In this document: positions 1,888 to 27,947 of the stretch, one piece after another | Layout: each line of letters opens with the position of its first letter | Numbering within the stretch: position 1 is the first letter of the stretch | Source of the DNA: Kiritimatiellia bacterium | GTDB taxonomy: Bacteria; Verrucomicrobiota; Kiritimatiellia; UBA8416; JADHWI01 | Assembly (NCBI GenBank): GCA_030744755.1 | Contig: JASLPY010000002.1 | Location: 67,006-131,005 of the forward strand | Direction of reading: 5' to 3' | DNA length: 64,000 nt | Translations under genes and position numbers: made by a program | The notes under the pieces: model-generated | Told to the model about the DNA's origin: nothing | The model's input: the letters and a program-made list of their open reading frames with translations, nothing else | Database searches by the model: none

Positions 1888-1922
1888 AAAGACGACCACG
1901 GATTCAGCTACATTGGACACCT

Positions 1923-2035
1923 CCCGTAGCTGAATTCGTTAGAATTCAGACTCTTCTGTACTGGTGAGGGCAAGATTTCTGAATCCTCACCCTCCGTCGC
2001 CAAGGCTAGGGAGGGCGGGCGGATTCAGCTACATG
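1923..2035 (+). repeat. Intergenic MITE-like repeat, copy A (about 113 bp)
   Basis: Shares a 32-bp block (cccgtagctgaattcgttagaattcagactct) and a second block (gaatcctcaccctccgtcgccaaggcta.ggagg...gcggat...gctacatg) with copy B at 7177-7291. Its ends are imperfect inverted repeats: cccgtagctgaattcg at the start and cggattcagctacatg at the end. A further 10-bp hairpin is formed by 1902-1911 and 1926-1935. Confidence 0.6.
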
Positions 2036-2054: not shown

Positions 2055-3899
2055 ATGACTGTAAGGGCCGTAATCTTGGGGTTGATCCTGTCGGTGGTGA
2101 TGGGCTCCGCCAACGTATACCTGGGGCTGAAGGCTGGTATGACTGTGTCTGCGTCTATTCCGGCCGCGGTGCTTGCCATGGTCTTTCTGCGTGGCCTCTT
2201 CCGCAATGGTACTATCCTGGAATGCAACCAGGTGCAGACTGCAGCCTCGGCAGGTGAATCGTTGGCGGCCGGCATTATCTTCACGATGCCGGCAATGATT
2301 CTTATCGGGGCCTGGCAGAGATTCGATTGGGGCCTGACTACGATTATCGCGTTCACAGGTGGCCTGCTGGGAATCCTGTTTATGATCCCCATGCGACGGG
2401 TCTTTGTGATCACGGAGGACCCCGATCTTAAGTTCCCCGAAGGTGTGGCCTGCGCCGCAGTGCTTCGGGCGGGCCAGGAGAACGCCGAGAAGGGTTCGGC
2501 ACTCGCTATACTTCAAGGCGGCGTTATAGGAGCAGTGGTCAAGTTGCTTGCCGGCCTGGTCGGCGTTGTCAACGGAACCCTCGAAGGGGCCACGAGGCTG
2601 GGCGGACGAATCTTCTACCTTGGCACCGACGTCTCACCGGCCCTTCTGGCCGTGGGTTACATCGTGGGGCTCAACGTGGCCATTTTGATCTTTATCGGCG
2701 GCGCTATTGCCTGGTTGGTGGGCATTCCGCTTCTGAGCGGTGATCCCGCGTCGGCGGGTGAAGTACTGGACAGTGCCTGGACCTTGTGGTCCACCAAGGT
2801 TCGCTATGTCGGGGTCGGCTGCATGGCGGTAGGTGGCGTATCGTCAATATGGAAGGTGCGCGGAGGACTCGTTCACGCGGTACGTGAGATGGGTAGAAAA
2901 CCTGCCGCGTCGGCGGGGGCAACCGACAAAGACCGGGACCTGCCCAAAAGCATCATCGTAGCCCTCAGCATGATAGCCGTTCTCATGGTAGGCGGGGTTT
3001 ACTTTCACCTCACGGGTGACTTGAGAATGACTCTGATCATAACCGCCATAATGATTGTTATGTCTTTCTTCTTCACCGCGGTGGCCAGCTATATCGTTGG
3101 CTTGGTTGGCAACTCGAACAGCCCGGTTTCCGGCATGACCATTACCACCGTACTCTTTACCGGGTTGTTGCTGGTGGTTTTGGGCTTCTCGGGGACTTCC
3201 GGCATGGTGGCGGTCCTGGGAGTGGCGGCCATAGTCTGTTGCGTGGCCTGCACTTCGGGTGACATCTGTAATGACCTCAAGACCGGTCAACTGGTCGGTG
3301 CCTCGCCCATGCGCCAGCAACTGATGCAGATCGGCGGGGTTGCGGTGGCCTGCCTGGTTATGGCGCCGGTCATGCAGCTTCTGCATGAAGCGGCCGATGG
3401 AGGAATAGGTGGTCCCGAGCTACCGGCCCCCCAGGCTGCCCTGTTTGCCGGTCTCGTCAGAGGTTTCTTCGGGGAAGGAGCGTTGCCATGGGATCTCGTT
3501 GGGGTGGGAGCGGGACTGGGGTTGCTGTTCCTGGTGATCGACAGGATACTCGAGTGGCGCAAGACCACTTTTCGCGTGCACCTGATGCCGGTAGCGGTGG
3601 GCATGTACCTTCCTTTCGGACTGGCAGCACCGATTCTGATCGGCGGACTGATCAATCATGCTGTCGTTAGAGGCAGGAACGAAAACGACGCCCAGGAACG
3701 CAGCCGGCGAGGCGTGCTTTTTGCTTCGGGGGCCATTGCCGGTGAGTCTCTTATGGGCGTGGGTATTGCTGTACTCTACAGGTTGGGAATTGAGAAAATG
3801 GATCTGCAATTGAGCGATCCTGTTCTGACTACGACAACGATTGTCATTGCGGTGGGCCTGGTCTTGTGCTTCCGATGGTTCTCCAGGCCCAGGAACTGA
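2055..3899 (+). CDS. OPT-family oligopeptide transporter
   Basis: 614-aa polytopic membrane protein. The N-terminus MTVRAVILGLILSVVMGSANVYLGLKAGMTVSASIPAAVLAM is characteristic of the bacterial OPT/YgaY-like family. Confidence 0.85.
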   Translation: MTVRAVILGLILSVVMGSANVYLGLKAGMTVSASIPAAVLAMVFLRGLFRNGTILECNQVQTAASAGESLAAGIIFTMPAMILIGAWQRFDWGLTTIIAFTGGLLGILFMIPMRRVFVITEDPDLKFPEGVACAAVLRAGQENAEKGSALAILQGGVIGAVVKLLAGLVGVVNGTLEGATRLGGRIFYLGTDVSPALLAVGYIVGLNVAILIFIGGAIAWLVGIPLLSGDPASAGEVLDSAWTLWSTKVRYVGVGCMAVGGVSSIWKVRGGLVHAVREMGRKPAASAGATDKDRDLPKSIIVALSMIAVLMVGGVYFHLTGDLRMTLIITAIMIVMSFFFTAVASYIVGLVGNSNSPVSGMTITTVLFTGLLLVVLGFSGTSGMVAVLGVAAIVCCVACTSGDICNDLKTGQLVGASPMRQQLMQIGGVAVACLVMAPVMQLLHEAADGGIGGPELPAPQAALFAGLVRGFFGEGALPWDLVGVGAGLGLLFLVIDRILEWRKTTFRVHLMPVAVGMYLPFGLAAPILIGGLINHAVVRGRNENDAQERSRRGVLFASGAIAGESLMGVGIAVLYRLGIEKMDLQLSDPVLTTTTIVIAVGLVLCFRWFSRPRN

Positions 3900-3900
3900 T

Positions 3901-6900
3901 CTACTGTTTCTCAACCACTCGCGCGGATGCCCCCCACTCGCCACCGAGCTGAATGATTTTGAGCATAAGATCGTTGGTACCCTTCATGAGGCGCACGTTC
4001 ACCTTGTCTCTGCCACGCTTATGTGCCGTCACGATATCGTTTGACCAGATTGCTTCCCCATTAAGCCAGGCCTTGATTCCGTCGTCGCTTCCCAGCTCCA
4101 GGATGGCATCACGTTCAGTTGTCGAGAAGACACGGGTCCTCAGGTACGCCACGCGGTTATTCCCGCCAACAATCGCGGTCAGATTGATATCCCCCGGTCG
4201 AAGCAACTTGGTGAAGGGACCCGCCAGCGTATCGATCGAACGCCACTCGACTTCCGTGTTGCCGTCCTGTTCGGGCGGGAACGCGGTATTGAAGAGGGAC
4301 TGCCTGTTGCCACCCGAGTAAGGTCCGGCCAATTCCCACGTGCAGATGCAACCGCCGATCTCCTTCACGGCATTCTGAAGATTCTTCACTTTCTGAAGGA
4401 CAAACTGTTTGTCCTCAGGTCGCCGCGCGAATTCAGCCGCAGCTTCCACTTTCGGCAGAACACGGTCATTGCCGGGGCTGAAGTCGCGCACCAGCATGTC
4501 TACGTATCCGCGAAATGCGAGTACACCGGCAACCATGTCCGGATCATCGCGTGCCATGTCGCGCAGAAGAGGTAGCGGCTTCGTTGTAGGCCAGTCGGAC
4601 AGGGCCCGAATCGCGGCCTTCCGGACCTCAACAACCTTGCTGTCCAGCGACTCCTTGATCGCTCCAAATGCGCGGTCCGTTCCGGAACGCCCCAGGACCT
4701 CAATCACTACGGGCTTCGTCGTTGAGTCGATCTTGTTGAGCACCGCTATCAGGCGTTCAATCTGTTTGTCCGTAACGCCGGCTTTTGCCACGATTGCTTT
4801 CATTGCGGCGGTAAGACGGGAACGATCGGATTCGGTCATCTCCACGGGCAACAGATCAACCAGGTCATCAAGATGTTCATTGGTCACGAGTGCGCGCAGA
4901 GCACGCAGTGCTGCGGAACGTTCTTCATCGCCTCCCTTTCTGACAGCTCCAATCAGGGAAGGGACTGCCTCTGACATTCCACGATCAGCCACGACACCCA
5001 TCATTTCGCAACGATTTGTGACCTGTCCCCCGGACAACCTCGCAAGGATGGCGGGTCCAACACCGGGTGCGTCAAGGCGACACAGGCTTTCCCGTGACAG
5101 TTTTCCCGGCTCGCCCTCTTCCAGCATCCTTTGCTCAAGTAATGCAACATGTGTCGGGCCGCCGAGGCCGCCAAGTGCTCTTATCGCTACGAGGTCGACG
5201 GCGTTGGTGCCATCCCTGGCCAGCTTTGCCACTGCATCCGCAGCACCGCGGTCCCCGCGTTGTTCCAATCCCGCGAGCAACACGATCTGGGCATCCTCGT
5301 GTAAGGAGGGCAACCGTTCGCCCGCGATTCTTGCGACTTCCGATCCATTGAGTTTCACCAACAGGCCGGCTGCCGCCAGGCATATCTCGCGGCTCTTTGA
5401 ATCCAGGGCCGCGATTACCGATTTCACTGCCACTGCATTGTCGAGACGCGCAAGGCCGTCAAGCGCCGCTACCCGCAGTGCCGTTGTCCCGCCATTTGCA
5501 TACACATCCTCGAGAACTCTCTGTGCCTTCTGCCTGGCGCCGCCTACCAGCAAACGATTTGCACAGGCAAGCCTCGCATGCGTTCTTGCAACCGTAAACT
5601 CCTTAGGCAAGCGTATTTCCTTCAGTGCTGCGAGGGCTGTCTCGGAACCCATGGATCCCAAGGCCCCCACCGCCGCGCAGACAACGGTCGTGTCCTGGCT
5701 GCCGGCCAGTGCGGCCAGCTTGTCCACGGCCTGACCGTCGCGGCGTTCGCCCACAACATTGATCACGCCCACCAGTTCATCTCCCTTGAATCGTGCCATT
5801 GCTGCTCTGAGTTCCCCTTCGCTTTCCGGTCCCGGCAGGCTTCTCAACGCTTCCAGCGCGGCATGGAAAGTGGCGGGTTCATCCATCAGCGAGGCAAGTG
5901 TTGAAACCAGCGGAGAGCCGTCGTCCGTCTTGGGCGTATTTACAGGGGCCCGGCGCTTTCCGAAGGGCATAAAGAGAGAGCGTTTGCGCTCGGCGCGGAC
6001 GGACGTTGTTGGGTGCCTCGCACTCACGTTTCCCCATTTGCCCAGCAGCCCGATCAGGCGGCATTTCGCGTCCGGCGTTGTTTTCTTCGAGGCCAGCATG
6101 TCCAGCAACTTACCCTGTATGATATCCCGTCCTTCCGGTCGCGCGTCGCGCAGGCGTTCTTCCAGAACGGTGAAGGCCTTCCGGCTGCCGCCGGCCTTGT
6201 ACGAAGCGATCTCCTTCATCAGATCCGTCCCGAGCAGCTCGCCTTCCCAGGAAGGTGCAGCCGGCGTCAGCTTTCTCCAGGCATCCATCGTCCCGGCGAG
6301 ATTAGCATGTGCATCGCCTCCGATACCGAAACCCTGGAATCCAACCGGGCCCTTGTACCCAACGTCCTTCAGCGCGGCCATGACCTTCCCGACATCATAG
6401 TTCCCGCGATCAAGTCTCTGAATCAGTTGCTTCCAGTCTTTGCCCCCGCGATCTGCGCCGTTTATTGAGACCATGGTCAGTAGCGGCGCCGCTTTTCGAA
6501 TGATTGTCACGAGATCCTGGTTTGGCGACACTTTCAGCCAGTGACACAGGTTGAATGTCACGCCGACATTCGGACGGTTAACTTTTTCCGCTACGCGGAG
6601 ACCGTCCTCCACACGTTCAATCCATGATCCGGCATGCGGATAAAGCGCCACACGCAACTTGTTCTTCGCAGCCAGATCTGCGATCTCCCGCAAATAGGGT
6701 ACGGCCAGCAAATCGCCAATGGGAGAAGAGAACCGGCTCGACGAGCTGTTCACTGCCAGCCAGAGACAAGAAACCCGGCCTTTCAGCACGGTCATAGCTT
6801 CGACCAGGTTCCCAGGTATCTGTTCGGCATCAACGGAAACAGTGAGGTAGATCGCGTAGAGCTTAAGCTTCTTGGCATCCAGGAGGCGAAGTGTGTCTTT

Positions 6901-7110
6901 CAGGTCGGCGATGTTGCCAAGTCCGAGGGAGATTCCATCGTAGCCGAGTTCCGCTACCATTTTCACCTGGCTCTCGCGTGTCCTGTGCTTGGCATCGCCA
7001 ATAGCCGTATCCATGGCAAAGAACTCGTTGGCTTGGCGCGCGCCTGCAACAGGCGCGCTCAACAACACACTCACCGCAAGAAGAGATATCAGCATCAAAA
7101 GTCTATTCAC
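3901..7110 (-). CDS. Secreted multidomain protein: xylose-isomerase-like TIM barrel, then HEAT repeats, then a C-terminal beta-sandwich
   Basis: GTG start with ribosome-binding site agagga, followed by a signal peptide. The N-terminal approximately 300 aa carry sugar-phosphate isomerase/epimerase motifs (..ALYPHAGSWIERVEDGLRVAEKVNRPNVGVTFNLCHWL..). The middle approximately 500 aa contain many A/L/G-rich HEAT/PBS-lyase-like repeats. The C-terminal approximately 200 aa form a ConA/LamG-like jelly-roll (..GIKAWLNGEAIWSNDIVTAHKRG..). Confidence 0.8.
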   Translation of the reverse strand: MNRLLMLISLLAVSVLLSAPVAGARQANEFFAMDTAIGDAKHRTRESQVKMVAELGYDGISLGLGNIADLKDTLRLLDAKKLKLYAIYLTVSVDAEQIPGNLVEAMTVLKGRVSCLWLAVNSSSSRFSSPIGDLLAVPYLREIADLAAKNKLRVALYPHAGSWIERVEDGLRVAEKVNRPNVGVTFNLCHWLKVSPNQDLVTIIRKAAPLLTMVSINGADRGGKDWKQLIQRLDRGNYDVGKVMAALKDVGYKGPVGFQGFGIGGDAHANLAGTMDAWRKLTPAAPSWEGELLGTDLMKEIASYKAGGSRKAFTVLEERLRDARPEGRDIIQGKLLDMLASKKTTPDAKCRLIGLLGKWGNVSARHPTTSVRAERKRSLFMPFGKRRAPVNTPKTDDGSPLVSTLASLMDEPATFHAALEALRSLPGPESEGELRAAMARFKGDELVGVINVVGERRDGQAVDKLAALAGSQDTTVVCAAVGALGSMGSETALAALKEIRLPKEFTVARTHARLACANRLLVGGARQKAQRVLEDVYANGGTTALRVAALDGLARLDNAVAVKSVIAALDSKSREICLAAAGLLVKLNGSEVARIAGERLPSLHEDAQIVLLAGLEQRGDRGAADAVAKLARDGTNAVDLVAIRALGGLGGPTHVALLEQRMLEEGEPGKLSRESLCRLDAPGVGPAILARLSGGQVTNRCEMMGVVADRGMSEAVPSLIGAVRKGGDEERSAALRALRALVTNEHLDDLVDLLPVEMTESDRSRLTAAMKAIVAKAGVTDKQIERLIAVLNKIDSTTKPVVIEVLGRSGTDRAFGAIKESLDSKVVEVRKAAIRALSDWPTTKPLPLLRDMARDDPDMVAGVLAFRGYVDMLVRDFSPGNDRVLPKVEAAAEFARRPEDKQFVLQKVKNLQNAVKEIGGCICTWELAGPYSGGNRQSLFNTAFPPEQDGNTEVEWRSIDTLAGPFTKLLRPGDINLTAIVGGNNRVAYLRTRVFSTTERDAILELGSDDGIKAWLNGEAIWSNDIVTAHKRGRDKVNVRLMKGTNDLMLKIIQLGGEWGASARVVEKQ

Positions 7111-7176
7111 AATGTTCCTCTAGATTGATCTATCCATCAACTCCATAGATTTCCGCGCACGCGCCTACGCAATAGT

Positions 7177-7291
7177 CCCGTAGCTGAATTCGTTAGAATT
7201 CAGACTCTCTCGGTCCAGAACCCTTTCACCCTTCGGAATCCTCACCCTCCGTCGCCAAAGGCTATGGAGGCCAAGCGGATCCCGCTACATG
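7177..7291 (+). repeat. Intergenic MITE-like repeat, copy B (about 115 bp)
   Basis: Second copy of the two conserved blocks seen at 1923-2035, in the same orientation. It lies between two minus-strand genes. Confidence 0.6.
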
Positions 7292-7326
7292 GGGTCCAGT
7301 AAACAGATCTTCGTGAATAATCCAGA

Positions 7327-8646
7327 CTACACTGCTGACAGTGACCATGGCGCACGCATTGCGCGTGACCGCATCGCATTGGCCTGGTCGTCATCTAAGA
7401 ATGATTCGTTGTCAGGATTCCACCGCAATTTTCGCCCCAGCAGCATGGCGATGTTGCCCAGGTGGCAAATTGTGGCCGTACGGTGTCCCACTTCAGCCGG
7501 TGCATACGTAGGCTGTCGGCTCTTAACGCAGTTGAGGAAATCGCGGTGTTCGCGATCCTTGCATGTGCGCAGGTGGATTTCATCCGGGCCTATCACAGAA
7601 TGGAGGATCTCTTCGGACGAAGCCTGCACGGCCGCCTCCCAGTTAGGGACATGCACCCAACCTTCATCGCCCTCGAAGCGAATACCTGGAACGCCGCTTT
7701 TGCAGCTCAGTTTCACTCCGTTCGCATATTCGTAGAGTACGTCAAACGTAAGGGCCGTGTTGTACAATCCATCCTGCGGGAAAACGCCGTGCCCTTCGAC
7801 GCTGACCGGTCCGCTGTGTTCCGTATCGTTTCCCCACTGTGCAACATCGTTGATATGGGCTCCCCAATCGGTCATAAGGCCGCCGGAGTAGTCGAAGATC
7901 CACCTGAAGTCGAAATGGCACCGTCCGCGCGTGTACGGAGCTTCCGGCGCCTGGCCGAGCCACATGTCGTAGTCGAAACCGTCAGGGACAGGTTGGGGCG
8001 GATGGGCCTGAGGCCCGACGTTCTGTCTGCTGCCCCCCTGCGGCAGTTCGGCGCGAATAGTGTGCAGCTTACCTATACGGCCGTTGCGCACCAGTTCACA
8101 TGCTCGCAGGAAATTCCCCTTCGACCGGTTTTCGCTGGCAGTCTGGAAAATCCGACCGTACTGGCGCATTGTATCGCTCAACACGCGTCCTTCGTGGATG
8201 GTCAGGGTGAGCGGTTTCTCGCAGAACACATCTTTTCCGGCGCGAGCCGCCGCGATGGCCGGTAGCACGTGCCAGTGATCAGGCGTGGAAACAACAACGG
8301 CATCAATATCATCGCGTGCGACGATTTCGCGCCAGTCGCCGGTTGTTACAGGACGCTCCGATTGCCCCTGTCTGGAGTAATGCTGCTGTGTCCTCTCGGC
8401 GGCCGACTTGAGCCGGTTCGCATCAACATCGCACAGTGCGACCACTTGAGCGTCCGGCTGGTGCAAGAAGGAGTTCAGGTTGACCCCCACACCGTGGCCT
8501 CCCAGGCCGATAAACCCGAGGGCGATTCGGTTACCCGGAGACGGCGAGGAGTCATTACCAAGAGCGCGTGCAGGGATAATCACGGGCAGCCCGATCGCGG
8601 CAGTTCCCGCAGCGAGGGTGGTTCTCAGAAAACGTCGTCGATTCAT
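7327..8646 (-). CDS. Gfo/Idh/MocA-family oxidoreductase with a Tat signal (periplasmic sugar dehydrogenase)
   Basis: Strong ribosome-binding site aaaggagg. Twin-arginine signal MNRRRFLRTTLAAGTAAIG. Rossmann GFIGLGGHG followed by the family core; approximately 439 aa. Confidence 0.85.
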   Translation of the reverse strand: MNRRRFLRTTLAAGTAAIGLPVIIPARALGNDSSPSPGNRIALGFIGLGGHGVGVNLNSFLHQPDAQVVALCDVDANRLKSAAERTQQHYSRQGQSERPVTTGDWREIVARDDIDAVVVSTPDHWHVLPAIAAARAGKDVFCEKPLTLTIHEGRVLSDTMRQYGRIFQTASENRSKGNFLRACELVRNGRIGKLHTIRAELPQGGSRQNVGPQAHPPQPVPDGFDYDMWLGQAPEAPYTRGRCHFDFRWIFDYSGGLMTDWGAHINDVAQWGNDTEHSGPVSVEGHGVFPQDGLYNTALTFDVLYEYANGVKLSCKSGVPGIRFEGDEGWVHVPNWEAAVQASSEEILHSVIGPDEIHLRTCKDREHRDFLNCVKSRQPTYAPAEVGHRTATICHLGNIAMLLGRKLRWNPDNESFLDDDQANAMRSRAMRAPWSLSAV

Positions 8647-9908: not shown

Positions 9909-9984
9909 GGGTTGGTTGTCGGCCTGCGATTGCTACAGGTGAAACCGACTCCGTTGTATGTATGAAGAAAGGAAGGGGATAAAT

Positions 9985-10713
9985 ATGAAGAGTCATATGC
10001 ATGTATTAGTCCTGGTTGTGTGTCTTGTGTCTTTCGGGTCTGTGATGACGGCGGGTGCGGAGGATACGGAATGTGTTGACCTGATGAAAGTTGAAGGGTT
10101 GGAGTCATTTCGTGAGCCAACGGGAGACTGGACGGTTGTTGGAAACGTGTCAAAAGACACGAAGAACGAACGTCTACTGGCCTCCGAGCCCGGCAAGGGG
10201 ACTGTTGTAAACGGGGCCAAGGGGCGGACCAAACACCTCTTCACGAAACTGGAGCACGGAGACATAGAGGCCCACATTGAGTTCGTGGTTCCGGCCAAGT
10301 CAAACTCGGGGGTCTATTTCCAGGGAAGGTATGAAATTCAGGTGCTGGACAGTTGGGGTGTTGAGAAACCCAAGCATGGCGATTGCGGCGGTATCTACCA
10401 GCGATGGAAGCAGGGCAAAGGATATGAAGGCCGTCCTCCGCGGGTCAATGCTTCGCGCAAGCCGGGGGAGTGGCAGTCGTTCGATGTGATATTCCGTGCG
10501 CCGCGTTTTGATAAGGACGGGAAGAAGACAGCCAACGCGGTTTTTGTAAAGGTTGTTCACAACGGAGTTGTGGTGCACGAAAACGAGGAACTTTCGGGAC
10601 CGACCCGCGCATCTGCTTACAATGATGAAAAGCCTCTTGGCCCACTGATGTTCCAGGGCGACCACGGTCCGGTTGCCTATCGAAACGTTCGGATCAAGTT
10701 GCTGAAGAACTAA
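9985..10713 (+). CDS. DUF1080 (3-keto-disaccharide hydrolase family) secreted protein
   Basis: Ribosome-binding site aaggaagggga before the ATG at 9985; the track's upstream start at 9958 is unlikely. Signal peptide present. Hallmark motifs SGVYFQGRYEIQVLDSW and MFQGDHGPVAYRNVRIK. Confidence 0.85.
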   Translation: MKSHMHVLVLVVCLVSFGSVMTAGAEDTECVDLMKVEGLESFREPTGDWTVVGNVSKDTKNERLLASEPGKGTVVNGAKGRTKHLFTKLEHGDIEAHIEFVVPAKSNSGVYFQGRYEIQVLDSWGVEKPKHGDCGGIYQRWKQGKGYEGRPPRVNASRKPGEWQSFDVIFRAPRFDKDGKKTANAVFVKVVHNGVVVHENEELSGPTRASAYNDEKPLGPLMFQGDHGPVAYRNVRIKLLKN

Positions 10714-10857
10714 CCGGCAAGGCAGAACACGGCTCAGCGCAGCTTTGCCCTCCATGCGTTGTCTAGAATGGCTGAGATTGTGGTCATGCAGGGCGAGGCC
10801 GTGCCGAGCCGGGGAGCACCCCGCCGATTTTCGATAGGCGCGATGACAGGTGAGAGT

Positions 10858-11157
10858 ATGAAAGAAGTGTGGTCAAGCCCCAGTCTCGTACAGTGCGACC
10901 TCGTCAAGGCTATGCTTGAGGGTGAAGGTATCGAGTGCGCGGTACGAAATGAGAGCAATGCGCGTTTCGCGGGAATAGGCTATCCGTTGCTTTCCGGGCA
11001 GACGCTCGCTTTTGCGTGGCCGCAACTGTGGGTGCCCGACGCGCAGTTTGAGAGGGCATCAGAGATAGTGCGTGACTATTCCAAAGGTCATGAGGAAACG
11101 CTCGAACGAGACAAGGAAAGATTGTCCGGCAATGAAACCGAGAGCGACGACTCGTAA
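10858..11157 (+). CDS. DUF2007-domain protein (putative signal-transducing protein)
   Basis: Internal ATG with ribosome-binding site ggtgagag. Matches the DUF2007 pattern ..VWSSPSLVQCDLVKAMLEGEGIECAVRNE..WPQLWVPDAQFERASEIV.. The upstream extension (from 10759) carries no domain. Confidence 0.55.
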   Translation: MKEVWSSPSLVQCDLVKAMLEGEGIECAVRNESNARFAGIGYPLLSGQTLAFAWPQLWVPDAQFERASEIVRDYSKGHEETLERDKERLSGNETESDDS

Positions 11158-11181
11158 CTTCTCATGGAGGAATGTTCGATG

Positions 11182-12372
11182 AGAATCACGCAAAGACGAT
11201 TTACAAACCGTGTCTTGCGAGCAATGCCGGTGATCCTCATCTTCCTGACCCTTGAAGCGCCTGCGCCTGGTGCTGACATCATGGTTCGTGATGCGAAAGA
11301 ATTGCGGGACGAGTTGCGTGGGGCACAACCCGGCGCCACGATCAGGCTGGCCCCGGGGAACTACGGTAGTGGTATTGGGGTCAAGGACCTCAATGGCACG
11401 AAAGACAAACCGATCGTCATTACGGGTGCAGACGCCCGGAATAGACCTTTGTTCGCCGGCGGTAACGAAGCCATACATTTTATCAATTGCAATTACATTA
11501 CGCTGCGTGACATCAAGGTATCCGGCTGTTCGGGAAACGGGATCAATGCCGACGATGGCGGCAGCTTTGATACGCCGTCAAGGGGGATGGTTTTTGAGAA
11601 TGTCACCATTGAAAACGTCGGGCCAACGGGCAATAGGGACGGCCTGAAACTGTCCGGTCTGGATTATTTCGTGGTCAGGAACTGCCGGATCTCCGGCTGG
11701 GGAGGTTCGGCAATCGATATGGTAGGGTGTCATGATGGTGTCATCGAAAGATGCCAATTCCTTGGTAAACAGGGATTTTCCCAGAGCACGGGAATCCAGA
11801 CCAAGGGTGGGTCCGAGAACATCATGATCAAGCAGAACTTTTTCAAGAACGCCGGCGGACGTGCTGTCAATATAGGCGGCAGTACCGGCCTTCAGTACTT
11901 CCGGCCAACTCTGCGTGACTACGAAGCGAAAGCCATTGAAGTTGCTGGGAACCACTTTGTCGGGAGTATGGCGCCGGTCGCTTACGTCACGTCGATCAAA
12001 TGCCTGGTGCGTCAAAATACCATTATCAACCCGGAGAAATGGGTCATGCGAATCCTCCAGGAACAGCCGACTGACAAGTTCCAGCCGTGCCAGCAGGGAG
12101 TCTTCGAAGCCAACCTGGTTGTTTTCGACAGACGAGTACGGACATTCGTCAACATCGGGCCAAACACAAAGCCCGAAACGTTTGTGTTCCGGAGAAACGC
12201 TTGGTTCTGCAGTGATGGGAACCGTCGCCCCTCGCTGCCTGCCAAGGAAGTCGATGGCGTCTATCAAATCGATCCCAAGCTGCAGAACCTTGAGACGCCC
12301 AGTCTGAAAGTGGGATCCAGAAATCTGAAACTGCAGGGTATAGGCGCCCATGCCTTCAGAATGCGAGATTAA
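11182..12372 (+). CDS. Right-handed parallel beta-helix repeat protein (pectate-lyase fold), secreted
   Basis: Ribosome-binding site ggagga. Signal-like N-terminus. Repeated motifs of the form ..NCxIxG..GIN.. (NCNYITLRDIKVSGCSGNGINADD, VRNCRISGWGGSAIDM). Confidence 0.7.
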   Translation, partial: RITQRRFTNRVLRAMPVILIFLTLEAPAPGADIMVRDAKELRDELRGAQPGATIRLAPGNYGSGIGVKDLNGTKDKPIVITGADARNRPLFAGGNEAIHFINCNYITLRDIKVSGCSGNGINADDGGSFDTPSRGMVFENVTIENVGPTGNRDGLKLSGLDYFVVRNCRISGWGGSAIDMVGCHDGVIERCQFLGKQGFSQSTGIQTKGGSENIMIKQNFFKNAGGRAVNIGGSTGLQYFRPTLRDYEAKAIEVAGNHFVGSMAPVAYVTSIKCLVRQNTIINPEKWVMRILQEQPTDKFQPCQQGVFEANLVVFDRRVRTFVNIGPNTKPETFVFRRNAWFCSDGNRRPSLPAKEVDGVYQIDPKLQNLETPSLKVGSRNLKLQGIGAHAFRMRD

Positions 12373-12387
12373 GAGGAAAACACAGTT

Positions 12388-15300
12388 ATGAAATCACTAT
12401 CAATCGTCCTGGTTGTGTTCGTGGCCTGTACCACCCGGTCCATCGCGGAGAAAGCGAATGGGCGCAAAGCCGTGCAAACGGAACTGGTTAAGGCCTCGGG
12501 TGTAACGGGAGGGCTGGTCGTTATTGTTGGTGACAATACTCAACTGGCGACTGAACTGGGATCAAAGGGCTCATACCTGGTGCACGTAATTGATACAGAC
12601 CAGGCAAGAGTCGACCGGGCAAGGGCACATATCCAATCAAAAGGACTTTACGGAACAGTGTCCGCGGATACGTTTGACGGAATCCATCTGCCCTACGTGG
12701 ACAACCTGGTGAACTTGGTCGTGATAGGGGACAGGCAATGTGAAATACGGCATGAGGAGGTCGAGCGCGTGCTTGCTCCTCGCGGCGTAGCCATCGCGCC
12801 GAAAGGTGCATCATGTATCCCTGACCCTTCCCTCCTCATAGCCGATGGGTTGGTTAGCTTCACAAACCCGGTTCCTTCCACTATTGACGACTGGACCCAT
12901 TTCCTGCATGGATCCGACAACAATGCCGTGGCTCGCGACAGCGTTGTTGGCCCGCCCCGGCATATGCAATGGGTGGGTGGCCCGCGCTACGGAAGGCATC
13001 ACGATAAGATGTCCAGTATCAGCGCCGTAGTCTCGTCAAGGGGGCGCGTCTTCTACATACAGGATGAAACTTCTCCTTTCTCGGTTCTTACGGCCCCGGA
13101 ATGGAAGCTCGTCGCCCGCGATGCCTTTAACGGGACAGTGCTCTGGAAACGGCATATAGCCAAATGGTTCAATGACCTCCATCCCCACAAAAGCGGCCCG
13201 GCAAATCTGCCGCGCAAGCTGGTCGCCGATGAAGACCGGGTCTACGTAACCCTCTCCATCGACGGTCCCGCCCTTGCCCTGAACGCAGCAACGGGTGAGA
13301 CGGTTAATACGTACGAAGGAACAGAACCGGCCGACGAACTTATGTACTCAGACGGAATTCTCTTTGTACGAAAAGAGACTGGGCTCTCGGCGTTCGATGC
13401 GGTTTCCAGCAAGGAACTGTGGAAAACCGACCAGGTACCCGTCAAGGGAAGCCTCGCCGTTGACGATGAGCGTGCCGTGTTCCTGGTTGGAGACCGAATT
13501 GCCTGTCTCAACAAGAAGGACGGAAAACAGATATGGCAATCGGAACCGGTGCCTCGACCCGAGAAGTACCATGTACGATTCACCCCAACCCTCATCCTTT
13601 ACGATGACATCGTGCTCTGGGCGGGTGGCGAGAAATCTGTGGGTCACAAGGATCACCAGGGGAACTACTCCTGGTTCAAAGGCCTTAACGATACCGTCAA
13701 CGCGCTGTCAGCCGAGACAGGCAAGCTGTTGTGGACGGCTCCTCATCCGTTATCCGGGTATGCTTCATCAGAGGATCTCTTCGTGATAGACGGGGTCGTC
13801 TGGTGTGGCGAAACCACCAGTGGCCACGCCGTAGGTCACTACAAGGGGCATGATGTAAAGACCGGCAAGGTCGTCAAGGAATTCGATCCGGATGTGGATA
13901 CTTACTGGTTTCATCACCGCTGTCATCGGGGCAAGGCGACCGAGAAGTTCATCCTGACGTCACGGACGGGCACCGAGTTTATCGACCCCAAGACCGGGCA
14001 CTGGCAGATCAACCACTGGGTACGCGGCGCATGTCTCTATGGCATCATGCCGGCCAACGGCCTGGTTTACTCGCCCCAGAATCCCTGTGCATGCTTTCTC
14101 GACAGCAGGATGGACGGTTTCAATGCTCTTGCCCATTCGCAAACGCCCTTCCCGAAAACGGAAACAGGACGACTCGAAAAAGGCCCTGCCTATCCGGAGG
14201 CCAGAGATCGGAAGTCAGAAGTCGGCAGGGCAGAGCCGCCCTCCGATCTCCGATCTCCGATCTCTGCTTCTTCCTGGCCCACCTACAGAGGCAACAACGG
14301 ACGAAGCGGAAGCATCGAGGCGAAGGTACCTCCTGAGGTGAGACCAGCCTGGGCAACGAAGATTGCCGGACGGATCAGCAGTCCAACGATTGCCTTCGGC
14401 AAAGTCTTCGTGGCCGCGATCGATCAGCACAAGGTTGTTGCCCTTGACGAAAAAGATGGGAAGATCCTCTGGCAGTATACAACCGGGGGGCGTGTGGATT
14501 CACCGCCAACTCTCATAGAGGCGGCAAAGGGCAAGGGGCAGAAGACGGTCGCCCTCTGTATCTTCGGCTCGCGCGACGGGATGATCACTTGCCTGAATGC
14601 ATCTGACGGCAAGGTTGCCTGGCGTTTCCGCGCCGCACCTGCCGACCGGCGTTTGATGGCATACGAGCAGATCGAATCGCTCTGGCCCGTAAGCGGCAGT
14701 GTGCTGGTCCACGACAATGTCCTCTACGCGGCGGTTGGACGATCCTTCTTCCTGGATGGTGGTCTTCGCCTCCTGCGGCTGGATCCCGTGAGCGGGAAAC
14801 TGCTTTCAGAGACTATGATGGGAGAGAAAGATGAGAAGGGCGAGGCGATACAGAGCTACGCCCGCCAACACAACATGCCCACTTCCCTTCCGGACATTCT
14901 CTCCTGTGACGGGAAGTATGTCTTCATGCGGTCGCAAGCTTTCAGGCTGGACGGCACCAGGTTGCCGCTGAAGGCATTGGAATACGGCGGCAATCCGGAA
15001 CGCTACTCTATCAAACCGACGCAGGATCCGGCGTTCGCGCATCTCTTCAGCCCCACGGGATTCCTGGACGACTCCTGGTGGCACCGGACCTACTGGGTAT
15101 ACGGCAGTCGCTTTATCGGGGGCTGGGCAGGCTATCCCCAGGCCGGCAAGGTTGCCCCGTCCGGCCGTATCCTGGTTTTTGACGATGACAGAGTGTTCGG
15201 TTATGGACGCCTGCCAAAGTTTTACCGCTGGACCAAGCCAATCGAACATCGCCTTTTCGCTGCCAGGAAGACCGGTTTCAAGATCAATGACAAGGAGGCG

Positions 15301-15627
15301 TATTCCTGGACTGGAGACATTGCCATGTTCCCGAGAGGTATGGTCAAGGCCGGCAATCTGCTGTTCATCGCGGGGCCGGAGGATTTCGTGAACGAAGAAG
15401 CCGCCTATCGCCACCGGAACAACCCAGAGTGGCAGGAAAAGATCCGCCGTCAGGCCGAAGCTTTCTCAGGAAGCGCCGGCGGTTTTCTGAGAGCAATGAA
15501 CACGGAGACGGGCGAGCAGGCCTCGCAGATAAAGATCGGCAGCATCCCCGTCTTTGACGGCATGGCCGCGGCCAACAGCAGGTTGTACATATCGCTCGTT
15601 GATGGCAGCGTCATGTGCTTGGAGTGA
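12388..15627 (+). CDS. PQQ-like beta-propeller repeat protein with an N-terminal methyltransferase-like Rossmann domain
   Basis: Ribosome-binding site aagagga. Signal peptide. GLVVIVGDNTQLATELG..VHVIDTD resembles methyltransferase motif I. Multiple PQQ/BamB-type blades (KILWQYTTGGRVDSPP, KVAWRFRAAPADRRL). 1079 aa. Confidence 0.75.
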   Translation: MKSLSIVLVVFVACTTRSIAEKANGRKAVQTELVKASGVTGGLVVIVGDNTQLATELGSKGSYLVHVIDTDQARVDRARAHIQSKGLYGTVSADTFDGIHLPYVDNLVNLVVIGDRQCEIRHEEVERVLAPRGVAIAPKGASCIPDPSLLIADGLVSFTNPVPSTIDDWTHFLHGSDNNAVARDSVVGPPRHMQWVGGPRYGRHHDKMSSISAVVSSRGRVFYIQDETSPFSVLTAPEWKLVARDAFNGTVLWKRHIAKWFNDLHPHKSGPANLPRKLVADEDRVYVTLSIDGPALALNAATGETVNTYEGTEPADELMYSDGILFVRKETGLSAFDAVSSKELWKTDQVPVKGSLAVDDERAVFLVGDRIACLNKKDGKQIWQSEPVPRPEKYHVRFTPTLILYDDIVLWAGGEKSVGHKDHQGNYSWFKGLNDTVNALSAETGKLLWTAPHPLSGYASSEDLFVIDGVVWCGETTSGHAVGHYKGHDVKTGKVVKEFDPDVDTYWFHHRCHRGKATEKFILTSRTGTEFIDPKTGHWQINHWVRGACLYGIMPANGLVYSPQNPCACFLDSRMDGFNALAHSQTPFPKTETGRLEKGPAYPEARDRKSEVGRAEPPSDLRSPISASSWPTYRGNNGRSGSIEAKVPPEVRPAWATKIAGRISSPTIAFGKVFVAAIDQHKVVALDEKDGKILWQYTTGGRVDSPPTLIEAAKGKGQKTVALCIFGSRDGMITCLNASDGKVAWRFRAAPADRRLMAYEQIESLWPVSGSVLVHDNVLYAAVGRSFFLDGGLRLLRLDPVSGKLLSETMMGEKDEKGEAIQSYARQHNMPTSLPDILSCDGKYVFMRSQAFRLDGTRLPLKALEYGGNPERYSIKPTQDPAFAHLFSPTGFLDDSWWHRTYWVYGSRFIGGWAGYPQAGKVAPSGRILVFDDDRVFGYGRLPKFYRWTKPIEHRLFAARKTGFKINDKEAYSWTGDIAMFPRGMVKAGNLLFIAGPEDFVNEEAAYRHRNNPEWQEKIRRQAEAFSGSAGGFLRAMNTETGEQASQIKIGSIPVFDGMAAANSRLYISLVDGSVMCLE

Positions 15628-18637: not shown

Positions 18638-18817
18638 GTCTATTTAAGTTTCCTTTGTGCTTCGTACTTTCGTATTGTGAACGGAAAGAGACGGCATGCC
18701 CCACTAGTAGGGATTTTCTTGTTGCAAATCAAATCGTTTCTTGCAGAATGCCGTCTCAATTTGCGCGGCGGGACCGAGGATGACGAACAAGCCGCGACAC
18801 AAAACCCGGAGAGAATC

Positions 18818-25382: not shown

Positions 25383-25398
25383 CAATGTGCGCGGTTGG

Positions 25399-27825: not shown

Positions 27826-27947
27826 ACTCGCCCTTTCCCAAGAATTCGGAAAAACTCCACCCAGTCCAGCAGGTCCGGCCAATGCCAAAGGCAAAGCGCC
27901 TGTCACGGTGGGGTTACTATGCTTTCCCGGCGGAGCTTGTGTCAAGG

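What the first reader, a model, noticed from the sequence alone, without database searches (positions are those of the whole stretch)
3901..7110. Unusual fusion of a sugar-isomerase TIM barrel, a roughly 500-aa HEAT-repeat solenoid and a ConA-like beta-sandwich in a secreted protein
Sugar-phosphate isomerase/epimerase barrels are normally stand-alone cytoplasmic enzymes of about 300 aa. Here one carries a signal peptide and is fused to a long HEAT/PBS-lyase solenoid and a lectin-like domain. This could be a periplasmic scaffold that presents a 3-keto-sugar lyase to a substrate or a partner.
Basis: inference. Interest (0 to 1): 0.55.

Follow-up and report, generated by a model that had tools for sequence, protein, structure and literature searches.

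The report
Exported partner protein of sugar dehydrogenase
This gene encodes an exported three-part protein (an unusual sugar-enzyme barrel, a long helical scaffold and a sugar-binding-type domain) that always sits next to an exported sugar-oxidising enzyme, so it probably belongs to a little-studied bacterial route for breaking down complex sugars by oxidation.

Summary
The ORF is real: window 3901-7110, minus strand, 1069 aa, with a Sec-type signal peptide. It is 100% identical to an NCBI Kiritimatiellia MAG protein annotated only as 'HEAT repeat domain-containing protein'. Modelling and fold search confirm a xylose-isomerase-like (βα)8 barrel and a ~36-helix HEAT solenoid. The C-terminal β-sandwich is PA14-like, not ConA-like, and carries an invariant DD motif.

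The main result is genomic context. A TAT-exported Gfo/Idh/MocA oxidoreductase lies immediately upstream on the same strand. Its closest named family is the BT_2158 glycoside 3-dehydrogenase.
- All 7 relatives with this module order share this neighbour.
- 57 of 74 loci carrying the same barrel subfamily share it. Most of those are DUF1080-barrel fusions.
- 70 of 75 loci encoding HEAT-only homologues have an oxidoreductase upstream, but of a different subfamily.

A DUF1080 gene lies nearby, so the locus resembles the known periplasmic 3-keto-glycoside pathway.

The barrel is not a canonical lyase. All four superfamily metal/catalytic positions are replaced (Y157, N187, S215, Q259). A different polar set is essentially invariant.

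Best reading: an exported scaffolded partner of a glycoside 3-dehydrogenase. Its chemistry is unproven. I rate it a new variant of a known kind.

The parts
3901..7110 (-). Whole gene: exported TIM-barrel / HEAT-solenoid / PA14-like protein, 1069 aa, stop codon at 3901-3903. It is 100% identical to NCBI MDP6522807.1 (Kiritimatiellia MAG).
7039..7110 (-). Sec-type signal peptide, residues 1-24, with predicted cleavage after AGA
   Evidence: Hydropathy. Homologues also start with signal-like segments. No signal-peptide predictor was available.
6256..7032 (-). Xylose-isomerase-like (βα)8 barrel, residues 27-285, of a PVC-type subfamily
   Evidence: Pfam PF01261. AF2 secondary structure. PDB profile hits to IolI, ketose 3-epimerases and others.
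6634..6642 (-). Invariant Y157-P158-H159 after β5. Y157 occupies the first canonical metal-ligand position.
   Evidence: Alignments. Conservation is 81/81 in two separate sets.
6538..6552 (-). Invariant N187-L-C189-H190-W191 at the end of β6. N187 occupies the position that is Asp in epimerases and Cys in UxuA.
6451..6468 (-). S215-I-N217-G-A-D220 at the end of β7. S215 (Ser or Thr across the family) occupies the canonical His position. N217, G218, A219 and D220 are nearly invariant.
6334..6336 (-). Invariant Q259 at the end of β8, at the position of the canonical catalytic/metal Glu
5917..6027 (-). Basic insert predicted to be disordered, residues 362-398 (pLDDT below 50). It is absent from the 32-36% identical homologues.
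4357..6228 (-). HEAT solenoid, residues 295-918, about 36 helices. The core of ~510 aa (residues ~400-915) recurs as one homologous unit in other proteins.
3904..4356 (-). C-terminal PA14-like β-sandwich, residues 919-1069
   Evidence: AF2 pLDDT 93. Foldseek against PDB. Weak Pfam PA14 hits in 6 of 13 relatives. The family has 14,202 representative proteins.
4081..4086 (-). Invariant D1009-D1010 within GSDDG, at the position of the DD pair of PA14 domains
   Evidence: Invariant, nearly invariant. The link to the Ca2+/sugar-binding DcisD motif is from my own knowledge of PA14 lectins and is an inference.
7327..8646 (-). Upstream partner gene: Gfo/Idh/MocA oxidoreductase with the C2-type C-terminal domain, 439 aa
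   Evidence: Pfam. NCBIfam best hit BT_2158_fam glycoside 3-dehydrogenase, 129.8 bits, below the cutoff of 750. Closest PDB entries are 8tdf/8tdh, DgpA and levoglucosan dehydrogenase. The adjacency is conserved.
8563..8646 (-). Twin-arginine (TAT) signal of the oxidoreductase: MNRRRFLRTTLAAGTAAIGLPVIIPARA
   Evidence: An RR motif is present in 56 of 61 adjacent oxidoreductases.
9958..10713 (+). Exported DUF1080 (3keto-disac_hyd) protein. It is 68% identical to the DUF1080 module fused between barrel and HEAT in P0010.
7111..7326 (.). Intergenic spacer between the two partner genes. It holds a ~205-bp insert that is absent from the 92%-identical relatives, where the gap is 8 bp.

Best explanation
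The gene encodes an exported (periplasmic) multi-module partner of the TAT-exported glycoside-3-dehydrogenase-like oxidoreductase encoded just upstream.

Shown:
- The protein has a signal peptide, a xylose-isomerase-like barrel, a ~520-620 aa HEAT solenoid and a PA14-like β-sandwich.
- The barrel subfamily and the HEAT family are each, independently, encoded directly downstream of TAT-signal Gfo/Idh/MocA genes.
- The barrel is most often fused to DUF1080, and here a DUF1080 gene lies nearby.

Inferred:
- The oxidoreductase oxidises a glycoside to a keto-sugar, probably at C3, using tightly bound NAD(P).
- The barrel then acts on that keto-glycoside by β-elimination, hydration or isomerisation. 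Its active site lacks the usual metal ligands and instead offers Y157, H159, N187, C189, H190, N217, D220 and Q259, with E165 and D169 nearby.
- The HEAT solenoid holds the oxidoreductase and/or the glycan chain.
- The PA14-like domain binds the carbohydrate substrate through its DD motif.

Together with DUF1080, this would be a scaffolded PVC-bacterial version of the oxidative, non-Koshland glycoside-cleavage pathway.
For: Architecture and export:
- ORF, signal peptide and folds.

The neighbouring oxidoreductase:
- It has a TAT motif.
- Its best named family is the BT_2158 glycoside 3-dehydrogenase.
- Its closest solved relatives are 8tdf/8tdh, DgpA and levoglucosan dehydrogenase.

Conservation of the gene pair:
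- The pair is kept in all 7 loci with barrel-HEAT(-C-terminal domain) order, across 29-92% protein identity and with otherwise different neighbours. It is also kept, with the oxidoreductase downstream, in one reversed HEAT-barrel protein.
- The adjacent oxidoreductases score 429-1002 bits against the window's, so they behave as co-inherited orthologues.
- In 80 genome loci with this barrel subfamily, the upstream same-strand neighbour is an oxidoreductase in 57 of 74 cases. The rate among non-adjacent genes is 21 of 409 (binomial p about 3e-58).
- 56 of 61 adjacent oxidoreductases carry an RR motif.
- Barrel-gene architectures in those loci: DUF1080-barrel 54, barrel alone 23, barrel-DUF1080 2.
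- Among HEAT-only exported homologues, 3 of 3 looked up and 70 of 75 in 80 metagenome loci have an oxidoreductase immediately upstream. The rate among non-adjacent genes there is 29 of 199.

Links to other keto-sugar modules:
- The window's DUF1080 is 68% identical to the module fused inside P0010.
- The C-terminal domain family co-occurs with HEAT in 31 of 54 relatives scanned. It co-occurs with ThuA in 5 and with DUF1080 in 2.

Published precedent (bioRxiv 10.1101/2024.03.25.586180):
- A TAT-exported Gfo/Idh/MocA 3-dehydrogenase works with a Sec-exported TIM-barrel 3-keto-β-glucoside lyase.
- A DUF1080 protein supplies the α-lyase and hydratase steps.

Conserved barrel site:
- A polar constellation at the C-terminal ends of the barrel strands is 93-100% conserved in 81 modules, and again in 80 independent loci.
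Against: - The barrel has no detectable sequence relationship to solved 3-keto-glycoside lyases or C-glycoside deglycosidases. A profile search of PDB at E ≤ 10 finds only IolI, ketose 3-epimerases, MJ1311, TM0416 and similar proteins. No specific NCBIfam model matches.
- All four canonical metal/catalytic positions are changed: E→Y157, D→N187, H→S/T215, E→Q259. The published lyase mechanism (Co2+ held by His/Asp/His, with a catalytic Glu) therefore cannot apply as such.
- E→Q and D→N are the kind of changes seen in inactive pseudoenzymes.
- The same barrel is also fused to sulfatases, glycoside hydrolases, esterases and β-propellers. Two such fusions that I looked up have no adjacent oxidoreductase.
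- HEAT-only proteins pair with a different oxidoreductase subfamily, scoring ~262 bits against ~561 bits for the barrel-linked ones.
- No physical interaction, activity, metal content or sugar binding has been tested. The published AL/BT enzymes do not need to form complexes.
- The barrel's active-site loops are modelled with low confidence, pLDDT below 50 at residues 192-197 and 219-237.
Confidence: 0.55

Rival explanations
1. The barrel is a catalytically dead, ligand-binding derivative (a pseudoenzyme). The whole protein would then be a non-enzymatic scaffold or lectin that positions the dehydrogenase, and other enzymes, on glycans. The barrel and the PA14-like domain bind sugar and the HEAT solenoid binds protein.
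For: - All four canonical catalytic/metal positions are replaced by non-ionisable H-bonding residues (Y, N, S/T, Q), and these replacements are fixed in 81 of 81 modules.
- The barrel is fused to many unrelated catalytic domains, in the way carbohydrate-binding modules are: sulfatase, GH20/29/32/78, melibiase, esterases, β-lactamase-like, PQQ propellers.
- Some of those fusions have no adjacent oxidoreductase.
- GH18 'chi-lectins' are a precedent for TIM-barrel enzymes that turned into lectins by losing the catalytic Glu (my own knowledge).
Against: - Two His, a Cys and several acidic residues (H159, H190, C189, D220, E165, D169) remain invariant at or near the catalytic face. That fits a re-built active site.
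- The stand-alone barrel and the DUF1080-barrel fusion are paired with an oxidoreductase as tightly as pathway enzymes usually are.
Confidence: 0.25
2. The barrel is a keto-sugar or keto-cyclitol isomerase/epimerase, similar to IolI inosose isomerase or the ketose 3-epimerases. It would work with an inositol- or sugar-dehydrogenase to epimerise substrates rather than to cleave glycosidic bonds.
For: - The closest solved sequences by profile search are IolI (E 1.2e-8) and ketose 3-epimerases (E ~1e-7).
- UniRef names the Kiritimatiella homologue 'Inosose isomerase'.
- The oxidoreductase also hits the inositol 2-dehydrogenase model at 72 bits.
Against: - Those enzymes use the E-D-H-E metal site that is missing here.
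- The oxidoreductase matches the glycoside 3-dehydrogenase family better: 130 bits against 72.
- The pervasive fusion to DUF1080 and the PA14-like lectin domain point to glycosides or glycans rather than free cyclitols.
Confidence: 0.12
3. The ORF is an artefact: a frameshifted or chimeric join of separate genes, or a chance long ORF in GC-rich DNA.
For: The DNA is 57-61% GC, and long ORFs also appear on the opposite strand.
Against: - An identical protein is in NCBI.
- Collinear full-length homologues at 32-92% identity come from independent assemblies.
- All three regions have domain or fold support.
Confidence: 0.01
4. The HEAT region is a bilin-lyase/NblB-like module (PBS-lyase HEAT repeats), and the protein handles a tetrapyrrole or another non-sugar ligand.
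For: Weak NCBIfam hits to NblB (29.7 bits) and to CpcE and CpeY.
Against: - The scores are far below the cutoffs of 300-600 bits and are typical of generic HEAT similarity.
- The host is a non-photosynthetic Kiritimatiellia MAG.
- Every conserved association is with sugar-active modules.
Confidence: 0.02

Closest known systems
AL/BT 3-keto-glycoside pathway of Alistipes and Bacteroides thetaiotaomicron (BT2156-2160): AL3/BT3 Gfo/Idh/MocA 3-dehydrogenase, AL1/BT1 TIM-barrel 3-keto-β-glucoside 1,2-lyase, AL2/BT2 DUF1080 α-lyase/hydratase (bioRxiv 10.1101/2024.03.25.586180)
   Same: - The same three protein families are encoded together.
- The oxidoreductase carries a TAT signal.
- The barrel and DUF1080 proteins carry Sec signals, so the location is periplasmic.
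- The oxidoreductase's best named match is the BT_2158 family.
   Different: - The barrel belongs to a different subfamily with no detectable sequence match to solved lyases.
- It lacks the His/Asp/His metal site and the catalytic Glu.
- It is fused to a HEAT solenoid and a PA14-like domain, neither of which exists in the AL/BT system.
- The oxidoreductase scores only 130 of the 750 bits needed for the BT_2158 equivalog.
IolI inosose isomerase (PDB 1i60) and ketose 3-epimerases (7cj4, 5zfs, 8yeb), within the Pfam AP_endonuc_2 superfamily
   Same: These are the closest solved sequences (E 1e-8 to 1e-5 with the family profile). They share the (βα)8 fold and the strand-end motif positions.
   Different: - Those enzymes are cytoplasmic, stand-alone proteins of ~280-300 aa with an E-D-H-E metal site.
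- Here the four positions are Y, N, S/T and Q.
- Here the protein is exported and multi-domain.
PA14 domains of GH3 β-glucosidase (3ac0), GH31 α-xylosidases (2xvk, 5jou) and adhesins/lectins (Cea1A, Epa1, MpIBP)
   Same: These are the best structural matches to the C-terminal domain (Foldseek E 4e-5 to 1e-3, TM 0.45-0.57). The conserved DD pair lies in a 'DDG..W.NG' context like the PA14 consensus. In PA14 lectins the DD pair binds Ca2+ and sugar (my own knowledge).
   Different: - Pfam PA14 does not reach significance on the window's domain.
- TM-scores are only moderate.
- It belongs to a large family without a Pfam model of its own (14,202 representatives), and that family is mostly attached to HEAT solenoids.
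Helical-repeat scaffolds: PP2A A subunit, importin-β and SF3B1 (structural matches). Functional analogy from my own knowledge: periplasmic TPR scaffolds of exopolysaccharide systems (PelB, PgaA, AlgK) that dock polysaccharide-modifying enzymes.
   Same: A long α-solenoid of paired helices. It is exported, and it is encoded next to the enzyme it may hold.
   Different: - There is no sequence relationship beyond the repeat type.
- No partner binding has been shown.
- This ~510-aa unit forms a discrete family tied to Gfo/Idh/MocA genes.

Membership tests
Xylose isomerase-like TIM barrel superfamily (Pfam PF01261 AP_endonuc_2) | Sequence match above the Pfam gathering score | tested here: met
   57.4 bits against a cutoff of 31.1, residues 138-272
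Xylose isomerase-like TIM barrel superfamily (Pfam PF01261 AP_endonuc_2) | (βα)8 barrel fold | tested here: met
   Eight strands alternate with helices over residues 28-285 in the AF2 model. Xylose isomerase 6qrr is among the Foldseek hits.
Xylose isomerase-like TIM barrel superfamily (Pfam PF01261 AP_endonuc_2) | Divalent-metal site formed by Glu/Asp/His/Glu (or equivalents) at the ends of β5-β8 | tested here: not met
   The aligned positions are Y157, N187, S215 and Q259 in alignments to 7cj4, 1i60, 3tva and 1tz9. These residues are fixed across 81 modules and again in 80 independent loci.
AL1/BT1-type 3-keto-β-glucoside 1,2-lyase | Exported TIM barrel encoded with a TAT-exported Gfo/Idh/MocA 3-dehydrogenase and a DUF1080 protein | tested here: met
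AL1/BT1-type 3-keto-β-glucoside 1,2-lyase | Co2+/Mn2+ bound by His-Asp-His, with a catalytic Glu above C2 of the substrate (residues as given in the paper) | tested here: not met
   I mapped positions through the superfamily alignments. They give Y/N/S/Q, with only H159 and H190 retained. A direct alignment to AL1/BT1 was not possible because their sequences could not be retrieved.
AL1/BT1-type 3-keto-β-glucoside 1,2-lyase | Detectable sequence homology to the characterised enzymes | tested here: not met
   No chain with a name suggesting such a lyase appears in the profile search of all PDB sequences at E ≤ 10. No specific NCBIfam model matches at E ≤ 1.
AL1/BT1-type 3-keto-β-glucoside 1,2-lyase | β-elimination activity on 3-keto-glycosides | not testable with these tools
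   Needs an enzyme assay.
HEAT repeat proteins (Pfam HEAT_2 PF13646) | Repeated helix-turn-helix units forming an α-solenoid | tested here: met
   HEAT_2 E 1.6e-27 with 5 matched stretches. About 36 helices. Foldseek hits to PP2A-A, importin-β, SF3B1 and CAND1.
PA14 domain (Pfam PF07691) | β-sandwich fold matching solved PA14 domains | tested here: met
PA14 domain (Pfam PF07691) | Significant match to the Pfam model | tested here: inconclusive
   No hit for the window's own domain. 6 of 13 close relatives hit weakly, best E 0.065. 3 of 54 family members hit at E ≤ 1e-5.
PA14 domain (Pfam PF07691) | Conserved DD pair (the Ca2+/sugar-binding DcisD motif of PA14 lectins) | tested here: met
   D1009-D1010 are invariant in 11 full-length and 13 domain sequences, and at least 90% conserved in 54-62 wider relatives. 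Ca2+ or sugar binding itself was not tested.
   None of the 50 listed Foldseek hits is described as ConA-, GH16- or laminin-G-type. No Pfam hit of that clan appears at E ≤ 10.
BT_2158 glycoside 3-dehydrogenase (for the neighbouring gene 7327-8646) | NCBIfam equivalog score, and a TAT signal | tested here: inconclusive
   It is the best-scoring named family, but at 129.8 bits against a cutoff of 750 and covering only the N-terminal half. The TAT motif RRRFL is present.

The most novel reading that the evidence does not exclude
Two uncharacterised exported module families act as dedicated physical partners of TAT-exported, NAD-bound sugar dehydrogenases. One is a barrel subfamily that has replaced all four canonical metal/catalytic residues. 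The other is a ~510-aa HEAT solenoid. In this protein they are fused to a PA14-like lectin domain to make a periplasmic 'oxidative glycosidase' assembly. The barrel would catalyse keto-glycoside elimination or hydration without a transition metal, stabilising the enolate through a Tyr/Asn/Ser/Gln H-bond network with a His, Cys or Asp as base. That would be a new catalytic solution within the xylose-isomerase-like superfamily, and a PVC-specific way of organising glycan breakdown.
Probability: 0.25. Interest if true: 0.75.

Novelty: new variant of a known kind. Interest (0 to 1): 0.6.

Why it matters
Oxidative (3-keto) glycoside cleavage was recognised only recently as a broad alternative to classical glycosidases, and it has been studied mainly in gut Bacteroidota. 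This locus suggests that PVC bacteria run a related system built from different parts. These phyla (Kiritimatiellota, Planctomycetota, Lentisphaerota, Verrucomicrobiota) include specialists on complex and sulfated marine polysaccharides.

- The barrel has a re-modelled, apparently metal-ligand-free site and occurs in at least 586 loci across species-representative genomes.
- The HEAT scaffold family sits next to the dehydrogenase in more than 90% of the loci examined.
- The PA14-like domain family has no Pfam model of its own and more than 14,000 representative members.

If the modules form a complex, this gives a concrete, testable model for how periplasmic dehydrogenases with a trapped cofactor are coupled to downstream steps and to polymeric substrates. 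It would also give names to three large groups of 'hypothetical' or 'HEAT repeat' proteins.

Tried and rejected
- Foldseek with the full-length model was dominated by eukaryotic HEAT proteins.
- I tried to find the AL1/BT1 lyase structures or sequences for a direct active-site alignment. PDB-code and keyword searches of the paper library gave only irrelevant papers, and the preprint text has no accession codes. The residue mapping to AL1/BT1 is therefore indirect.
- The first alignment of HEAT-only proteins (A8) was too diverse for pattern design. A narrower alignment (A9) worked.
- NCBIfam hits of the HEAT region to NblB, CpcE and CpeY were rejected as generic repeat similarity.
- I considered a UxuA-like His/Cys/His/Asp metal site. 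The alignment puts the UxuA Cys opposite N187 and its His opposite S215, so it gives no support.
- I considered TAT 'hitch-hiking' of the HEAT proteins with the oxidoreductase. I rejected it because all of them carry their own Sec-type signal peptides.
- A literature search for the HEAT / Gfo-Idh-MocA / DUF1080 / ThuA combination found nothing relevant.

Full report
**1. The observation**

Window 3901-7110 holds one uninterrupted minus-strand ORF of 1069 codons. It has a GTG start and a GAGGAA motif 7 nt upstream. The protein is 100% identical to NCBI MDP6522807.1, 'MAG: HEAT repeat domain-containing protein [Kiritimatiellia bacterium]'. The sequence is therefore already public, but it is annotated only by its repeats.

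It is not a mis-joined frame. P0002 aligns at 54% identity over 99% of the length. P0003-P0012 align at 32-36% over 83-100%, collinearly through all three regions, and come from independent NCBI, JGI, ENA and Logan assemblies.

The N-terminus MNRLLMLISLLAVSVLLSAPVAGA|RQ is the only strongly hydrophobic segment and looks like a Sec signal peptide. Homologues start in the same way.

**2. The three folds**

*Sequence families.* Pfam finds AP_endonuc_2 (xylose isomerase-like TIM barrel, 57.4 bits against a cutoff of 31.1, residues 138-272). It also finds HEAT_2 (E 1.6e-27, five stretches). It finds nothing for the last ~150 residues.

*Full-length model.* An AlphaFold2 model built on 11 homologues has mean pLDDT 80. 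It shows:
- eight β-strands alternating with helices over residues 28-285;
- a disordered basic insert at residues 362-398, which the distant homologues lack;
- about 36 helices from residue 295 to 918;
- a β-sandwich from residue 919 to 1069.

Foldseek against PDB returns SF3B1, the PP2A A subunit, importin-β and CAND1 for the solenoid. Xylose isomerase also appears, at rank 39.

*C-terminal domain.* A separate model of this domain has pLDDT 93. Its best matches are PA14 domains: GH3 β-glucosidase 3ac0, Cea1A, the GH31 enzymes 2xvk and 5jou, MpIBP 6x8a/6x8d and Epa1. CBM35 and GH2 N-terminal domains also match. E-values run from 4e-5 to 1e-3 and TM-scores from 0.45 to 0.57. None of the 50 listed hits is described as a ConA-, GH16- or laminin-G-type protein.

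Pfam PA14 hits 6 of 13 close relatives weakly and 3 of 54 wider relatives at E ≤ 1e-5. The pair D1009-D1010 in 'GSDDG' is invariant. From my own knowledge, it corresponds to the DD pair that binds Ca2+ and sugar in PA14 lectins.

The 'ConA-like' label is not: the domain is PA14-like.

**3. The modules are mobile**

Domain mapping of the 94 homologues shows that the three modules recombine freely.
- The barrel (40-57% identical) occurs before or after the HEAT unit and with DUF1080.
- The barrel also occurs with sulfatases, GH20/29/32/78, melibiase, esterases, PQQ propellers, FG-GAP repeats, DUF6807 and even a Gfo/Idh/MocA domain.
- The HEAT core of ~510 aa aligns end to end as one unit in proteins that lack the barrel. 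These include stand-alone exported proteins of 636-680 aa.
- A profile of the C-terminal domain finds 14,202 representative proteins in the 50%-identity library, 7,642 of them at E ≤ 1e-10.
- Of 54 of the best hits, 31 carry HEAT repeats, 5 carry ThuA and 2 carry DUF1080.

The exact barrel-HEAT-PA14-like order is therefore a rare combination of common parts. It accounts for about a dozen 90%-identity clusters. It also accounts for 1 of the 80 best genome loci, plus 1 more with DUF1080 inserted between barrel and HEAT.

**4. Genomic context, the main result**

*The upstream gene.* Immediately upstream on the same strand (7327-8646) lies a Gfo/Idh/MocA oxidoreductase with the C2-type C-terminal domain.
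- It has a clear twin-arginine signal, MNRRRFLRTTLAAG...ARA.
- Its best NCBIfam match is BT_2158_fam 'glycoside 3-dehydrogenase', at 129.8 bits, well below the equivalog cutoff of 750.
- Its closest solved relatives are 8tdf/8tdh, the C-glycoside 3-oxidase DgpA and levoglucosan dehydrogenase.

*Relatives with the same module order.* The same gene pair is present in every barrel-HEAT relative I looked up.

| Protein | Source | Locus |
|---|---|---|
| P0001 | — | L001, L002 |
| P0009 | — | L003, L004 |
| P0012 | — | L005 |
| P0029 | Kiritimatiella glycovorans | L006 |
| P0008 | — | L007 |
| P0007 | — | L008 |

The surrounding genes differ between these loci. In the reversed HEAT-barrel protein P0030, the oxidoreductase follows instead (L009). 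The adjacent oxidoreductases score 429-1002 bits against the window's, so they behave as co-inherited orthologues.

*All loci with this barrel subfamily.* A scan of one genome per GTDB species with the barrel alignment found at least 586 loci. Most are in Planctomycetota, with others in Verrucomicrobiota, Lentisphaerota and Hydrogenedentota. I called ORFs in the best 80 loci and searched them with my own profiles.
- Architectures: DUF1080-barrel 54, barrel alone 23, barrel-DUF1080 2, barrel-HEAT-C-terminal 1, barrel-DUF1080-HEAT-C-terminal 1.
- The upstream same-strand neighbour is a Gfo/Idh/MocA gene in 57 of 74 cases.
- Among non-adjacent genes the rate is 21 of 409 (binomial p about 3e-58). 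The loci are from different species but are not fully independent.
- 56 of 61 adjacent oxidoreductases carry an RR motif.

*HEAT-only proteins.* The HEAT module shows the same behaviour without any barrel.
- Three of three HEAT-only proteins I looked up lie directly downstream of such an oxidoreductase.
- In 80 metagenome loci retrieved with a HEAT-only alignment, 70 of 75 upstream neighbours are oxidoreductases. The rate among non-adjacent genes is 29 of 199 (p about 2e-52).
- These oxidoreductases form a separate subfamily. Their median score against the window's is 262 bits, against 561 bits for the barrel-linked ones.
- All HEAT-module proteins have their own Sec-type signal peptides.

*DUF1080.* The window also encodes an exported DUF1080 protein at 9958-10713. 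It is 68% identical to the DUF1080 module fused between barrel and HEAT in P0010, and 55% identical to the one in P0024.

**5. Comparison with what is known**

The preprint 10.1101/2024.03.25.586180 describes a periplasmic pathway in Alistipes and Bacteroides.
1. A TAT-exported Gfo/Idh/MocA enzyme (AL3/BT3) with tightly bound NAD oxidises glycosides at C3.
2. A Sec-exported TIM barrel formerly annotated as 'sugar phosphate isomerase' (AL1/BT1) is a 3-keto-β-glucoside 1,2-lyase.
3. A DUF1080 protein (AL2/BT2) is the α-lyase and the hydratase.
4. The 3-keto-glucose product re-oxidises the cofactor.

The window locus has the same three families with the same export signals. This is the strongest argument that the protein works in such a pathway.

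**6. Why the barrel is not simply 'the lyase'**

The preprint gives the AL1/BT1 active site as Co2+ bound by His178/Asp211/His237, a catalytic Glu272, and substrate contacts from His103, His180 and Trp214.

I aligned the window's barrel and its family profile to ketose 3-epimerases (7cj4), IolI (1i60), 3tva and UxuA (1tz9). These alignments place Y157, N187, S215 and Q259 at the four canonical metal/catalytic positions at the ends of β5-β8.

These replacements are fixed. Y157, H159, N187, H190, G218, A219 and Q259 are 100% conserved, C189 99% and D220 93% in 81 modules. In 80 independent genome loci the same core residues are again essentially invariant, as are N217 and D169.

A profile search of all PDB sequences at E ≤ 10 finds IolI, epimerases, MJ1311, TM0416 and similar proteins. 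It finds no chain with a name suggesting a 3-keto-glycoside lyase or a C-glycoside deglycosidase. NCBIfam gives no specific family.

The barrel therefore belongs to the xylose-isomerase-like superfamily but fails the defining metal-site test, and it cannot be filed with AL1/BT1. The strictly conserved two His, one Cys and several acidic residues at the catalytic face argue for a functional pocket. I cannot decide computationally whether that pocket is catalytic, perhaps metal-independent, or only ligand-binding. The mapping onto AL1/BT1 is indirect, because I could not retrieve their sequences.

**7. Most likely mechanism (confidence 0.55)**

The protein is an exported partner of the upstream dehydrogenase.
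- The dehydrogenase makes a keto-glycoside.
- The barrel processes it, or at least binds it.
- DUF1080 supplies the complementary lyase/hydratase step.
- The HEAT solenoid acts as a docking surface for the dehydrogenase and/or the polymer.
- The PA14-like domain anchors the assembly on a glycan.

The architecture, the export signals and the gene linkage are shown. Complex formation, the reaction and sugar binding are inferred.

Rivals:
- The barrel is a pseudoenzyme and the protein is a pure scaffold or lectin (0.25). In favour are the E→Q and D→N type substitutions, the CBM-like range of fusion partners, and the absence of an adjacent oxidoreductase in a sulfatase-barrel and a DUF6807-barrel fusion.
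- The barrel is an IolI-like keto-sugar isomerase/epimerase (0.12).
- The ORF is an artefact (0.01).
- The HEAT region is bilin-lyase-like (0.02).

**8. Novelty and score**

The pathway type is known and the sequence is already in databases. Within the paper library I could search, none of the following appears to be described:
- the barrel subfamily with a rebuilt site;
- the HEAT family as a near-obligate neighbour of TAT-exported dehydrogenases;
- the large PA14-like family that has no Pfam model of its own;
- the fusion of all three.

I rate it a new variant of a known kind, with interest 0.6.

**9. Limits**

- The active-site loops of the barrel are modelled with low confidence (residues 192-197 and 219-237).

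Noticed in passing
window 7111-7326: The spacer between the oxidoreductase stop and the start of the barrel-HEAT gene holds a ~205-bp insert. It is absent from the 92%-identical relatives L001 and L002, where the two genes are 8 bp apart. The insert is flanked by TAG...TAG and contains the perfect hairpin CTGAATTC-GTTA-GAATTCAG. The signal-peptide codons just after it are much more diverged than the rest of the gene.
   Followed up: partly
window 1922-2035 and 7176-7291: A repeated intergenic element. Part of the insert above recurs in the same orientation upstream of the OPT transporter gene (2055-3899). Blocks of 33/33 and 49/56 identical bases include the hairpin and CCTCACCCTCCGTCGCCAAAGGCTA. 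It could be a small mobile or regulatory repeat.
   Followed up: partly
L095-L174 (metagenome loci), L090-L092: Exported HEAT-only proteins of ~640-680 aa form a family that lies directly downstream of a TAT-signal Gfo/Idh/MocA gene in 70 of 75 loci. Those oxidoreductases belong to a different subfamily from the one linked to the barrel (~262 against ~561 bits versus the window's enzyme).
   Followed up: yes
L010-L089 (genome loci): The commonest form of this barrel subfamily is a ~500-580 aa DUF1080-barrel fusion, seen in 54 of 81 barrel genes. It is preceded by the oxidoreductase, so the two genes together carry all three families of the published 3-keto-glycoside pathway.
   Followed up: yes
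window 3904-4356 and proteins P0095-P0240: The PA14-like C-terminal domain belongs to a very large family without a Pfam model of its own: 14,202 representatives at E ≤ 1e-3. It is often present in two tandem copies and often sits at the C-terminus of ~850-aa HEAT proteins. It also occurs with ThuA, FN3/purple-acid-phosphatase N-terminal domains and PSCyt/DUF1549/DUF1553 proteins.
   Followed up: partly
window 10759-15627: On the plus strand after the DUF1080 gene come a DUF2007 protein (10759-11157), a β-helix/NosD-like protein (11164-12372) and a 1079-aa PQQ_2 β-propeller protein (12388-15627). The order is syntenic in L001 and L002. PQQ-type propellers are also found fused to the barrel module (P0023, P0025, P0042).
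   Followed up: no
window 15867-62157: The rest of the window looks like an envelope-polysaccharide biosynthesis region. It holds GT2, GT4, PMT_2, an FrhB/FdhB-like Fe-S protein and two LPG_synthase_TM proteins. It also holds a Gfo/Idh/MocA-hexapeptide acyltransferase fusion (45865-47550), a methyltransferase-GT fusion, a sulfatase (18599-21040) and GDSL esterases.
   Followed up: no
window 23205-25385, 25399-27951, 42479-45010, 48763-50868: Four large ORFs (701-850 aa) have no Pfam hit at E ≤ 1e-5.
   Followed up: no
window 5917-6027 (residues 362-398): A basic, low-complexity insert predicted to be disordered (VSARHPTTSVRAERKRSLFMPFGKRRAPVNTPKTDDG) lies between the first four helices and the main HEAT core. 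It is present only in the closest relatives (P0001, P0002) and not in the 32-36% identical homologues.
   Followed up: no
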